The translations under genes were made by a program, and so were the position numbers. DNA of 64,000 nt from Escherichia coli (GTDB lineage Bacteria; Pseudomonadota; Gammaproteobacteria; Enterobacterales; Enterobacteriaceae), in NCBI RefSeq assembly GCF_003334765.1, contig NZ_QOWT01000009.1; one strand, given 5' to 3'. Below the pieces are notes generated by a model that was not told the origin of the DNA, made no database searches, and saw only the letters and a program-made list of their open reading frames with translations. This document shows positions 1 to 3,550 of this stretch, in pieces. Numbering within the stretch: the stretch's first letter is position 1; the number at the start of each line of letters is the position of its first letter.

Positions 1-183
1 GGGGTCAGCCCCCGGGAAAAAAACTTTACCTAATGCGTAAGCAACAAAACCATAAACACCAAAATCGAACCATTCCATTGCATTACCCAGTGATGCTGCG
101 GTAATGGCTTTACGCAGTTTACCGTCATCAATAATGGTGACATCACGAAGGGTAATCGGTTTTACTTTTTTCCTTTTCAGCAT
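1..183 (-). CDS. proP: Proline/glycine-betaine:H+ symporter ProP, N-terminal 61 codons only; gene continues beyond window start
   Basis: Reverse-complement of 1..183 translates from ATG (183..181) as MLKRKKVKPITLRDVTIIDDGKLRKAITAASLGNAMEWFDFGVYGFVAYALGKVFFPGADP, recognised as the ProP N-terminus; not in ORF track because it runs off the edge. Confidence 0.88.
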   Translation of the reverse strand, partial: MLKRKKVKPITLRDVTIIDDGKLRKAITAASLGNAMEWFDFGVYGFVAYALGKVFFPGADP

Positions 184-391
184 AGCTTTCCTCGCAGAGT
201 TGGCCCATTTCCGCAAACGCCAGAAAAATCAGCGCGACGGCCGCAAAAGGGGAGCGGGAATTGCAGGATGCAATCTCTGTAACAAGCGTAGCGGGTTTGC
301 TTACACCCTCCGGTTAAGGAATGTACAATCAAACCAGTTGACGCCTGAATTGGGCAGTTAATGACCTTTTTACCCTACCAGTGTTTAAATT

Positions 392-407
392 TGTGATCAA
401 CTTCACA
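392..407. promoter_or_regulatory. CRP-binding palindrome in proP upstream region
   Basis: Perfect TGTGA-N6-TCACA (tgtgatcaacttcaca) about 210 bp upstream of proP ATG; consistent with the known CRP-controlled proP P1 promoter. Confidence 0.55.
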
Positions 408-446
408 CATGGATTTCGTTTAGGACTCATTGATGTAACTGATTAT

Positions 447-1325
447 TTACGCCAAATTTACAGAGAAGATTTCCTCGAGCATTGCCCCCGCCAGACGCTG
501 CGCTGAACAGAGTCGTGGCATCCCCAGCGCGACAGTTTGCCAGCGTTGGGTCACTGACCAGCAAACGGGTTGTTTATCTGCCGTGGTCCACTTTCCCAGC
601 CAACTTAAAAAATCAGCATGCTCCCCGCCCGTCGGAACGGTCGAAGAGGCAAACCACTGATGGTAATAGTGACGCGTGGTCGGTGCCGCATTGATACTCT
701 CTGCCAGATGTTGTGTCGCTTTCTCGAGCAAATCACCCAGCAACAACGCCACCGCTTGCGGGCTTCCCAGACGGCAGGCATCGCCAAATGCCCCCCAGCG
801 CAACTCCTCCAGAACGATAAAACAGCGCCCAGGCAACGACCAGGCGTTATACGCCCCAGCACGCCAGCGGGTAAAAATTTGCTCGCTCTGATCACCTGCC
901 TGCACCAGTAGGCCTCGTTGCGTTAACGCCTTTTCCTTCCAGCGACAACGGGCTGAAAACCACTCATACAAGGCGGCAATTTGCTGGGGGAGCTCCGGGA
1001 AAGCAGAGTGCTGGCGGTGATCCATTTTTTGCAGCAGCGCCAGATGCTGCGCGATCTGCGTCAGTGCCAGATGACCGGGATCCAGCATCGACGCCAGTTT
1101 TTCCACCAATGTCAGACGCAGGCTAAGCGGCGCATTTAACATGCCGCCGTTCGTCCATGTCTGAAGCTGCACACGCGAAAGAAGTTCCTGCATCAGTCGT
1201 TCACGAAACTGCTGCTGATGGGCTTGTGGAAGGCGGGCATCATCACCCTGCGCCAGATCCACTAAAAAGCGGGGATAAACCGACTCCAGCACGCGACCGG
1301 GGCCGTCAAGTAACGTCTTGGTCAA
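447..1325 (-). CDS. yjcZ: Uncharacterised protein YjcZ (292 aa), co-operonic with crfC
   Basis: ORF track 447..1325; start ATG overlaps crfC stop by 4 bp (ATGA on minus strand). Confidence 0.88.
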   Translation of the reverse strand: MTKTLLDGPGRVLESVYPRFLVDLAQGDDARLPQAHQQQFRERLMQELLSRVQLQTWTNGGMLNAPLSLRLTLVEKLASMLDPGHLALTQIAQHLALLQKMDHRQHSAFPELPQQIAALYEWFSARCRWKEKALTQRGLLVQAGDQSEQIFTRWRAGAYNAWSLPGRCFIVLEELRWGAFGDACRLGSPQAVALLLGDLLEKATQHLAESINAAPTTRHYYHQWFASSTVPTGGEHADFLSWLGKWTTADKQPVCWSVTQRWQTVALGMPRLCSAQRLAGAMLEEIFSVNLA

Positions 1326-3550
1326 TATCGTTCTGCCGTGAAAAGTGTTTGAATATCATCGCGTAACAGCTGGGCGTCGGTGTAAATCCAGCCGTGAGTC
1401 ATCACAGTCTGCTGCAATTGCTGCTGCATCAGCCTGACCACCGATTCATTTTGTTGACGCAGAGCCAGACTTTCGCGTAAACGCGTCTGTAATTCCGTCA
1501 AACATGAAGCGAACTCAGCGAAAAAAGTATTCATGCCTGCCGTAACAGATTCATCGACCTGCTCTGCCAGAACTTTAGCCATTTGTTGGCAATAGAGATC
1601 GACTTCTGCGCTTAATGCTCGTTGCAACACACTGTAATCAACCGTTTCTGTCGGTGATTTCTCATTTCCCCGTCCCCAGTCGGGCTGATTCAACCAGCGC
1701 GAAAAAGTCTCACGCACAACGCCTAAACGCGTGCTCTGCTCGTCCGTTGCTTCCTGGCGCGAAATGACTTCACTGAACAGCTGGCGAGTGTTGAAGTGGG
1801 GAACTACGCCGTGAAAAACAGGAAAATGAAACCCAGGACGAAACCCTGACTCGCTCAATTCCATTTTGACTTGTTGCTCAATGGGGCGAATAACATCGGT
1901 TAACACCCGGCAAAGGGTGGATTCAAGCTCGGCAAAACGCAGCGTAAAGTCGCGACTGATGGTGTTCTGCGCCGTCTGTAACAGTGTCTCACAGCGGGTA
2001 CGAATCTCGCTTAACGGCTCCGAATCATCCTGAAACAAGGCGGCTAACTGCACCTTCAGCGCATCTTGCTGTTGACGCAGAAAGTGGTTGGCGGAGGTCA
2101 GGGCCAGCTCGATTTCATGTTTAATCTCGCCGCTCACCTGCGCCTGATTGAGTTGCAATAGCTGCAAACTTTCTTCGATCTGGTGGATATTTTGCCGCAA
2201 TTGTTCACAAGCGACGTTTAACCCGTGCGCACGAAAATCCAGGTATTCCCGCGCCTGCTGCGCGTAATTCAACAGTTTATGCGCGGCAGATCGCAGAGCA
2301 TACAACGAGGCGTTAGCGTAAGCGGCATGAAGCAACGCCTGAATTGGCTGGGCGAACAGCGAATCTTCCCACAACTGATCGGCAGCATGACGAATATGTT
2401 CGAGGTCCGCCAGATCGGCATGACGCCAGCGCCTGCCAAGCGCGGCATGGGCAAAATCTTCCACCCAGCGTTGTTGCTCTGGCGGTGGTAACTTACCGTT
2501 GTTGGCTAACTCATAGCGCGCCCGATTCGCCAGGTAGCCCCACATCGACGACACCGGAAATATCTGCTGTGGCGTAATACAGCCTTTCATCAGCGTCCCG
2601 GAAATCAGTGCCCGCACCTGGTCGGCGTCGTCACTGTTACGATCCTGTTGATCGAACTTATTGACCAGCACGTACAGCGGCACCGATTGCCCCACCGCCA
2701 AAATCGCCTCACGGACCTCTTCATCGGAGATCGATTTCAGTTGCGTATAATCCAGCACCGCCAGTACCGCCGAGGCGCGTGCCAGCTGCTGGTTAAGCAT
2801 TTTTTGCAGATGCGGTTGCCCGGCTTCATTTGGCCCGGGGGTATCCAGTAACGTCAACTGACCGGGATAACTCTCCAGCCCCGCTAGATGGACAAACTCC
2901 ACTTCAATCACGGGAATATGCTCAATGGCGGCGTAAGCAGAAAAAGGAAAATCGACGTCCAGCGCCTTCGCCAGTCGCACTAAATCATTCAAACTTTTCA
3001 GACAATGAAAAATAGGCTGGGCACCCAGATAATATTTTTCGAAAGCGACGCCATTTTCGATCCGCTGCATAAGCGCACGCATATCTTTATCTATTTCCAG
3101 CACATCGGTCAGATGCTTAATATCGCAATCACGCAGGCGCTGTTGTAATTGTTGAATTAAACAATCGATTGGCGCGACATGTGAAAAATGCAGTACCGGT
3201 TCCTTTTGCCCGGGCGTATGGCGAATAAGCGTCGGCAGCGCAGTCATTGGGCGATTACGATTAGGCAGAACCTCCGTACCAACAATGGCATTAATGGTGG
3301 TTGATTTCCCTGCTTTCATGGTACCGACAATTGCAAGCACCATTTCCAGTCGGGAAATTTTACGCAACTCATTATTCAGCATCGCGTGACGTTCGGCGAT
3401 ATTAGGCTGACTCCAGGGTAAAGCCAGTTGTGGCGCGTCGTCTCCGGGTACAGAGAGAGGCATTTTTTCCAGTAACTGCAACTGTTGGCGAGAAAGCTGT
3501 AACAGGCGTTCAGCCTCCTGACTTAACTCATACAGGGTCTGTGTGTACAT
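1322..3550 (-). CDS. crfC: Dynamin-like GTPase CrfC/YjdA (742 aa)
   Basis: ORF track; GTPase P-loop GTMKAGKST and long coiled-coil-like C-terminal region visible in translation. Confidence 0.9.
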   Translation of the reverse strand: MYTQTLYELSQEAERLLQLSRQQLQLLEKMPLSVPGDDAPQLALPWSQPNIAERHAMLNNELRKISRLEMVLAIVGTMKAGKSTTINAIVGTEVLPNRNRPMTALPTLIRHTPGQKEPVLHFSHVAPIDCLIQQLQQRLRDCDIKHLTDVLEIDKDMRALMQRIENGVAFEKYYLGAQPIFHCLKSLNDLVRLAKALDVDFPFSAYAAIEHIPVIEVEFVHLAGLESYPGQLTLLDTPGPNEAGQPHLQKMLNQQLARASAVLAVLDYTQLKSISDEEVREAILAVGQSVPLYVLVNKFDQQDRNSDDADQVRALISGTLMKGCITPQQIFPVSSMWGYLANRARYELANNGKLPPPEQQRWVEDFAHAALGRRWRHADLADLEHIRHAADQLWEDSLFAQPIQALLHAAYANASLYALRSAAHKLLNYAQQAREYLDFRAHGLNVACEQLRQNIHQIEESLQLLQLNQAQVSGEIKHEIELALTSANHFLRQQQDALKVQLAALFQDDSEPLSEIRTRCETLLQTAQNTISRDFTLRFAELESTLCRVLTDVIRPIEQQVKMELSESGFRPGFHFPVFHGVVPHFNTRQLFSEVISRQEATDEQSTRLGVVRETFSRWLNQPDWGRGNEKSPTETVDYSVLQRALSAEVDLYCQQMAKVLAEQVDESVTAGMNTFFAEFASCLTELQTRLRESLALRQQNESVVRLMQQQLQQTVMTHGWIYTDAQLLRDDIQTLFTAERY

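What the first reader, a model, noticed from the sequence alone, without database searches (positions are those of the whole stretch)
184..446. Perfect CRP palindrome upstream of proP
TGTGA-N6-TCACA (392..407) lies about 210 bp upstream of the proP ATG, consistent with the distal proP P1 promoter being CRP-controlled.
Basis: partly seen in the sequence, partly recalled or inferred. Interest (0 to 1): 0.25.

Follow-up and report, generated by a model that had tools for sequence, protein, structure and literature searches.

The report
Known CRP site in proP promoter
The palindrome is real, and it is the already characterised binding site through which the global regulator CRP shuts off the salt-inducible proP P1 promoter and helps switch on the stationary-phase P2 promoter in E. 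coli, so it is a textbook feature and not a discovery.

Summary
TGTGAtcaactTCACA lies at window 392..407, one of two exact matches in 64 kb where 0.04 are expected. The window is identical to E. coli K-12. proP is on the minus strand (ATG at 183..181), and 184..446 is the rdcB(yjcZ)-proP intergenic region.

Published transcript starts are 182 nt (P1) and 95 nt (P2) upstream of the ATG. With these, the palindrome centre (399.5) sits at -34.5 from P1 and -121.5 from P2. The P1 -35 hexamer TTGATC (400..395) lies inside the CRP site.

Across 17 Enterobacteriaceae genera the 16-bp core is 94-99% conserved, and conservation drops to 47% immediately upstream of it. In E. coli the promoter segment is present in 5410 of 5426 complete genomes.

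The literature reports that CRP-cAMP binds here and represses P1 in an osmolarity-sensitive way. The same CRP, together with Fis, co-activates the RpoS-dependent P2.

What needed adding is the direction: repression of P1 by promoter occlusion, not activation. This is already known, so interest is low.

The parts
389..410 (-). 22-bp CRP-cAMP binding site. The core TGTGAAGTTGATCACA (proP orientation) is at 407..392 and its centre is 399.5, which is -34.5 relative to P1 and -121.5 relative to P2.
   Evidence: Exact core match; 15 of 22 to the consensus. Core conservation is 0.94-0.99 across 17 genera against 0.47 in the upstream flank. The literature reports CRP binding and repression here.
395..400 (-). 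proP P1 -35 hexamer TTGATC, lying inside the CRP site.
   Evidence: Placed from the published P1 start and a 17-bp spacer to TAGGGT. Invariant in all 17 genera.
372..377 (-). proP P1 -10 hexamer TAGGGT.
   Evidence: Covers positions -12..-7 relative to window 365. Conservation 0.91. The hexamer assignment is inferred from geometry.
365..365 (-). proP P1 transcription start (G), 182 nt upstream of the ATG. P1 is the sigma-70, osmotically inducible promoter.
   Evidence: The -182 position is taken from PMC3808355, which cites Mellies et al. 1995. Mapped onto the window.
352..366 (-). Probable Fis site II (GGTCATTAACTGCCC, centred about -81 of P2), overlapping the P1 start.
   Evidence: The sequence fits the degenerate G-N13-C Fis core. 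The -81 position comes from my own recollection of Xu & Johnson 1995. PMC3808355 states that Fis binding inhibits P1. Conservation 0.78.
312..326 (-). Probable Fis site I (GTACATTCCTTAACC, centred about -41 of P2), the class II activator position.
   Evidence: G-N13-C core. The title of McLeod et al. 1999, 'Fis ... class II transcriptional activator at ... proP P2', appears in the reference list seen. The exact position is from memory.
285..291 (-). proP P2 extended -10 element CTACGCT, with the -13 C typical of RpoS-dependent promoters.
   Evidence: Covers positions -13..-7 relative to window 278. Conservation 0.97 across 17 genera.
278..278 (-). proP P2 transcription start (A), 95 nt upstream of the ATG. 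P2 is RpoS-dependent and is activated by Fis and CRP.
   Evidence: The -95 position is from PMC3808355. Mapped onto the window.
189..193 (-). proP Shine-Dalgarno sequence GAGGA.
   Evidence: Read directly from the sequence. AGGA is invariant in the 17-genus alignment.
1..183 (-). First 61 codons of proP (osmolyte/H+ symporter); the gene runs off the window start.
   Evidence: 100% identical to K-12 proP. The translation MLKRKKVKPI... was read.
447..1325 (-). rdcB (yjcZ), the co-directional upstream gene. Its stop codon is 40 bp from the edge of the CRP core.
   Evidence: ORF list and K-12 annotation.

Best explanation
The palindrome is the single CRP-cAMP operator of the E. coli proP control region. 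It has two roles because proP has two promoters.

(1) At P1, the distal, sigma-70, osmotically inducible promoter that starts at window 365, the site is centred at -34.5 and physically contains the -35 hexamer TTGATC. Bound CRP therefore occludes RNA polymerase and represses P1. Repression is relieved after an osmotic upshift or on subculture into fresh medium.

(2) At P2, the proximal RpoS-dependent promoter that starts at window 278, the same bound CRP lies at -121.5. Together with Fis bound next to the promoter, it co-activates transcription on entry into stationary phase, through contacts with the alpha C-terminal domains of RNA polymerase.

Shown here: the sequence, its statistical rarity, its geometry relative to the published start sites, its overlap with the -35 hexamer, and its strong conservation. 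Taken from the literature: CRP binding, repression of P1 and co-activation of P2. Inferred: the exact hexamer and Fis-site assignments.
For: Exact core, 2 found against 0.04 expected. The window is identical to K-12, with proP on the minus strand. P1 and P2 starts are at -182 and -95 from the ATG (PMC3808355), which puts the CRP centre at -34.5 and -121.5, with TTGATC-17 bp-TAGGGT as the P1 core promoter.

In an alignment of 17 Enterobacteriaceae genera, the distal half-site scores 0.94, the spacer 0.96, the proximal half-site 0.99 and the -35 hexamer 1.00. The 39 bp immediately upstream score 0.47, so the footprint edge coincides with the edge of the CRP core. The distal TGTGA half lies outside the -35 hexamer yet is conserved, which argues for selection on CRP binding and not only on the promoter.

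The 71-bp segment is present in 5410 of 5426 E. coli genomes. In the three variant E. coli strains I inspected, every substitution falls outside the 16-bp core.

[quoted passage not shown] The same picture appears in PMC5066198 and PMC1635313.
Against: The primary papers (Xu & Johnson 1997; Landis et al. 1999; McLeod et al. 2000, 2002; Mellies et al. 1995) are not held. I could not read the footprints, or the stated -34.5 and -121.5 positions, directly. Those figures are my geometric derivation, and they agree with my recollection of those papers.

The simple promoter scan did not call P1 or P2. Both hexamer pairs are weak matches to the consensus, so their assignment rests on the published start sites.

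The CRP-to-P2 distance is not fixed across genera. It is about 108.5 +/- 2 in 12 of 17, but 97.5 in one and 147.5-153.5 in four (corrected). The P2 co-activator role may therefore not hold everywhere.
Confidence: 0.93

Rival explanations
1. CRP bound at the palindrome activates P1, as at a class II promoter such as galP1.
For: The site is close to the promoter, and CRP is most often an activator.
Against: From established knowledge (Busby & Ebright 1999, listed in the references seen), activation needs the site at -41.5 (class II) or at -61.5 and further upstream in helical steps (class I). Here the centre is at -34.5 and the site contains the -35 hexamer. Three held papers state that CRP represses P1.
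Confidence: 0.03
2. The conserved block is conserved only because it is the P1 core promoter. The TGTGA/TCACA symmetry is incidental, and CRP has no role at this site.
For: The -35 hexamer is the only fully invariant part. The proximal half-site and the spacer overlap it.
Against: The distal half TGTGA (-42..-38) lies outside the -35 hexamer yet is 0.94 conserved, next to a flank at 0.47. An exact 5+5 inverted repeat is rare, with 0.04 expected per window. CRP binding and CRP-dependent regulation are reported.
Confidence: 0.03
3. The palindrome is a chance match with no function.
For: Short inverted repeats do arise by chance. One-mismatch versions occur at chance level in the window (3 found, 1.8 expected).
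Against: The exact match is far above expectation. It is conserved across genera whose upstream flanks cannot be aligned, and there is published experimental work on it.
Confidence: 0.01

Closest known systems
The CRP site of the E. coli proP P1/P2 control region (Xu & Johnson 1997, J Bacteriol 179:2410; Landis et al. 1999, Genes Dev 13:3081; McLeod et al. 2000, J Bacteriol 182:4180; McLeod et al. 2002, J Mol Biol 316:517)
   Same: It is the same DNA. The window is 100% identical to K-12 here. The geometry I derive, -34.5 from P1 and -121.5 from P2, matches what I recall from those papers and the summaries.
   Different: Nothing differs.
Class I and class II CRP-activated promoters (lac P1 at -61.5; galP1 at -41.5)
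   Same: The same protein and the same TGTGA-N6-TCACA core. At P2, CRP acts positively through the alpha C-terminal domain, as at class I promoters.
   Different: At P1 the site is at -34.5 and overlaps the -35 hexamer, so CRP represses. At P2 the site is much further upstream (-121.5) and needs Fis as a partner, which makes it a synergistic, class III-like arrangement.
Promoters repressed by CRP through promoter occlusion (for example cyaA P2; from my own knowledge, not checked here)
   Same: The CRP site overlaps core promoter elements, and cAMP-CRP lowers transcription.
   Different: At proP P1 the repression is reported to be sensitive to osmolarity, so CRP acts as an osmoregulator (Landis et al. 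1999, cited). The same bound protein also activates a second promoter downstream.

Membership tests
CRP-cAMP DNA binding site | Inverted repeat TGTGA-N6-TCACA within a 22-bp twofold-symmetric site | tested here: met
   Exact core at 392..407. 15 of 22 matches to the consensus, placing it in the top 5 of about 64,000 positions in the window.
CRP-cAMP DNA binding site | Lies in a regulatory region at a defined distance from a transcription start | tested here: met
   Lies in the intergenic region 184..446. The centre is -34.5 from P1 and -121.5 from P2, using the published starts.
CRP-cAMP DNA binding site | Conserved above the neutral flank in related species | tested here: met
   Core 0.94-0.99 against an upstream flank of 0.47 in 17 genera. 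The core is intact in the sampled E. coli variants.
CRP-cAMP DNA binding site | Physically bound by CRP-cAMP (footprint, EMSA or ChIP) | not testable with these tools
   [quoted passage not shown] The primary paper is not held.
CRP-cAMP DNA binding site | Expression of the target changes in crp or cya mutants | not testable with these tools
   Reported: P1 is repressed and P2 is co-activated by CRP.
Class I / class II CRP-activated promoter (applied to P1) | Site centred at -41.5 (class II), or at -61.5, -71.5, -82.5 or -92.5 (class I) | tested here: not met
   The centre is at -34.5 and the site contains the -35 hexamer TTGATC. P1 is therefore not a CRP-activated promoter.
Repression by promoter occlusion (applied to P1) | The operator overlaps the -35 and/or -10 element of the repressed promoter | tested here: met
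   The -35 hexamer at 400..395 lies within the CRP core at 407..392. The overlap is invariant in 17 genera.
Synergistic (class III-like) co-activation (applied to P2) | A second activator is bound next to the promoter, with CRP further upstream on a compatible helical face | tested here: inconclusive
   Fis-like G-N13-C cores are centred near -41 and -81, but the Fis motif is too degenerate to prove binding. The CRP-to-P2 -10 distance is 106.5-111.5 in 12 genera, 97.5 in one and 147.5-153.5 in four (corrected by 1). These shifts are roughly whole helical turns, but the sample is small. Co-activation is reported for E. coli.

The most novel reading that the evidence does not exclude
No terminator is detectable in the 40 bp between the rdcB(yjcZ) stop codon and the CRP site. 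CRP bound here could therefore also act as a roadblock, or as a gate, on transcription reading through from crfC-rdcB into proP. That would add a third role to the site in Escherichia, the only lineage in my sample where these genes sit directly upstream. My evidence neither supports nor excludes this.
Probability: 0.07. Interest if true: 0.25.

Novelty: already known. Interest (0 to 1): 0.06.

Why it matters
The site explains how one bound regulator gives opposite outputs at two promoters of an osmoprotectant transporter gene. It keeps the salt-inducible promoter off in low-osmolarity growth and helps the stationary-phase promoter fire. This was worked out in the 1990s and early 2000s, so re-finding it has no discovery value. 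It does show that the first-stage reader can recognise real operators.

The overlap of the CRP site with the P1 -35 hexamer is invariant across at least 17 enterobacterial genera, whereas the distance to P2 varies. This suggests that repression of P1 is the more strongly constrained of the two roles.

Tried and rejected
- **Primary papers.** The proP promoter papers (PMID 9079929, PMC178980, PMC101903, PMC317180, PMC176566) are not held.
- **Full-text searches for the positions.** Searches for '34.5' or '121.5' together with proP returned only clinical papers on C-reactive protein, or nothing.
- **Independent start-site data.** I looked for proP starts in the Cappable-seq supplement, but the stored file is cut to the first eighth and cannot reach 4.33 Mb.
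- **NtrC.** A ChIP-seq peak labelled 'yjcZ-proP' (PMC4066584) lies about 3 kb upstream, inside crfC. It was negative by EMSA and does not concern this region.
- **Consensus promoter and terminator scan of 1..700.** It called neither P1 nor P2. It gave one plus-strand promoter-like hit (300..329) and one weak hairpin in the proP leader (245..233). Both are at chance frequency, so I set them aside.
- **Other papers that mention proP P2.** PMC11434276, PMC3828302, PMC4784862, PMC2885671 and PMC6524683 gave only citations or nothing.
- **FNR.** I considered an FNR site because of the TTGAT. The second half, AATTT, matches ATCAA at only 2 of 5 positions (read), so I rejected it.
- **Upstream 22-mer.** A 22-mer conserved upstream of proP in other genera has no counterpart in the window.

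Full report
**What is in the sequence.** Window 392..407 reads TGTGATCAACTTCACA, an exact TGTGA-N6-TCACA. The pattern occurs twice in the 64-kb window, where dinucleotide-preserving shuffles give 0.04 +/- 0.20, and none of 100 shuffles reached two. Allowing one mismatch adds only one more site and brings the count to chance level (3 found, 1.8 expected). So the signal lies in the exact matches. The 22-mer 389..410 matches the CRP consensus AAATGTGATCTAGATCACATTT at 15 of 22 positions, and only 5 of about 64,000 window positions score that high.

**Where it is.** Window 1..1400 is 100% identical to E. coli K-12 MG1655 and is present in 5415 of 5426 complete E. coli genomes. The annotation and the ORF list place three genes on the minus strand:
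- crfC at 1322..3550;
- rdcB (yjcZ) at 447..1325;
- proP, with its ATG at 183..181, running off the window start.

The finding's range 184..446 is therefore exactly the rdcB-proP intergenic region. The palindrome centre (399.5) is 216.5 nt upstream of the proP ATG.

**Geometry relative to the promoters.** PMC3808355, citing Mellies et al. 1995, places the proP P1 and P2 transcript starts at -182 and -95 from the ATG. These are window 365 (a G on the coding strand) and window 278 (an A).
- The CRP centre is then at -34.5 relative to P1 and -121.5 relative to P2. These are the figures I recall from Xu & Johnson 1997 and McLeod et al. 2000, but I could not read those papers.
- Read in the proP direction, the P1 core promoter is TTGATC (400..395), a 17-bp spacer, then TAGGGT (377..372). 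The -35 hexamer lies inside the CRP core (407..392).
- P2 has the extended -10 element CTACGCT at 291..285.
- Two Fis-like G-N13-C cores are centred near -41 (326..312) and -81 (366..352) of P2. The second overlaps the P1 start. The Fis positions are from my memory plus a fit to the sequence. The held literature supports them only through the statements that Fis is a class II activator at P2 (reference title) and that Fis binding inhibits P1.

**Conservation.** I fetched proP loci from one genome per species and scanned 500 bp upstream of each start codon.
- The core TGTGAAGTTGATCACA, or a one-mismatch version of it, is present 202-265 nt upstream of the ATG in Escherichia, Citrobacter, Lelliottia, Enterobacter, Leclercia, Pseudescherichia, Kosakonia, Phytobacter, Superficieibacter, Kluyvera, Pluralibacter and others. 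It lies 331.5 nt upstream in Pseudocitrobacter.
- In a 17-genus alignment, column identity is 0.94 for the distal half-site, 0.96 for the spacer, 0.99 for the proximal half-site and 1.00 for the -35 hexamer. It is 0.91 for the P1 -10 and 0.97 for the P2 -10. It is only 0.47 for the 39 bp just upstream of the CRP core and 0.47 for the P2 leader.
- The conservation boundary coincides with the outer edge of the CRP core. The distal half-site lies outside the -35 hexamer, so its conservation argues for selection on CRP binding itself.
- Upstream of the site, the other genera cannot be aligned with E. coli. The one I examined, a Citrobacter, has a long AT-rich non-coding stretch there and no rdcB. 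The site therefore travels with proP and not with the upstream gene.
- Within E. coli, the 71-bp promoter segment is found in 5410 of 5426 genomes and is identical in 3547 records. In the three variant E. coli strains I inspected, all substitutions fall outside the 16-bp core.

**Mechanism.** Held papers summarise the experimental work consistently.
- P1 is the distal, osmotically inducible promoter, and it is repressed by CRP-cAMP through binding to the promoter DNA.
- P2 is RpoS-dependent. It is induced on entry into stationary phase and is co-activated synergistically by Fis and CRP. The two proteins bind independently and contact the two alpha C-terminal domains of RNA polymerase.

These statements come from PMC3050693, PMC3808355, PMC5066198 and PMC1635313. 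The geometry found here explains the sign of each effect. A centre at -34.5 that contains the -35 hexamer cannot be an activating position, because class II needs -41.5 and class I needs -61.5 or further upstream. It must compete with RNA polymerase. The same protein at -121.5 of P2 is upstream of the Fis sites, where it can add an alpha-CTD contact.

**A detail that may be new but is minor.** The CRP-to-P1 arrangement (overlap with the -35 hexamer and a 17-bp spacer to the -10) is the same in all aligned genera, whereas the CRP-to-P2 distance is not. The figures printed are 1 too large because of an anchor offset in my script. After correcting them, the distance from the CRP centre to the first T of the P2 -10 is:
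- 106.5-111.5 in 12 genera (109.5 in E. coli);
- 97.5 in Superficieibacter;
- 147.5-153.5 in Kluyvera, Pluralibacter, the isolate RIT691 and Cedecea. In the first three this is due to an insertion of about 40 bp between the P1 -10 and the Fis II region; the Cedecea sequence is poorly alignable there.

These shifts are close to whole helical turns (about -1 and about +4). The sample is small and the scatter is about 3 bp, so I treat this as a hint only. It suggests that repression of P1 is the more tightly constrained role.

**Verdict.** The feature is the well-known proP CRP operator, so there is nothing novel here.

Noticed in passing
window 54860..54875: This is the only other exact TGTGA-N6-TCACA in the window (TGTGATATAGTTCACA). 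It matches the 22-bp CRP consensus at 16 of 22 positions, better than the proP site. It lies in the divergent pdeC (yjcC)-yjcB intergenic region, 140 bp upstream of the yjcB ATG. PhyloScan ranked yjcB among its top predicted CRP targets (PMC1794230). A 2026 study found yjcB up-regulated in a crp deletion (PMC13339887). It is therefore probably a real CRP operator that has been little studied.
   Followed up: partly
window 60616..60637: CTGTGTGATCTTGCGCATATTT matches the 22-bp CRP consensus at 15 of 22 positions, with one good half-site. I did not look at which genes flank it.
   Followed up: no
L003 1024..1045, and the equivalent positions in L004, L006, L009, L010, L012, L013, L015, L016, L018-L020, L024 and L057: A conserved 22-mer, TTTAGTTATCTTCATCACATAT, with the ends TTAGTTA...TCACATA, sits about 165-260 bp upstream of the proP CRP site in Citrobacter, Lelliottia, Enterobacter, Leclercia, Kosakonia, Kluyvera, Phytobacter and Pseudescherichia. 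The surrounding AT-rich DNA is otherwise variable. It has no counterpart in the E. coli window, where crfC-rdcB occupy that position. Its function is unknown.
   Followed up: partly
window 408..446: No terminator-like hairpin was detected between the rdcB (yjcZ) stop codon (449..447) and the CRP site or P1. Transcripts from crfC-rdcB may therefore read through into proP. One paper treats 'yjcZ-proP' as a transcription unit (PMC4066584).
   Followed up: no
alignment A1 columns 136-180 (between window 370 and 369); loci L018, L022, L023: Kluyvera, Pluralibacter and isolate RIT691 carry an insertion of about 40 bp between the P1 -10 and the Fis II region. Cedecea (L028) also carries extra sequence there but is poorly alignable. 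This moves the CRP site about four helical turns further from P2 and leaves its overlap with the P1 -35 hexamer untouched.
   Followed up: partly
window 233..245 (minus strand): There is a weak 5-bp GC hairpin followed by a T-rich run (TGCGGCCGTCGCG CTGATTTTTC) inside the proP 5' leader downstream of P2. Such hits occur at chance frequency in the scan (1 found, 1.0 expected), and the region is poorly conserved.
   Followed up: no
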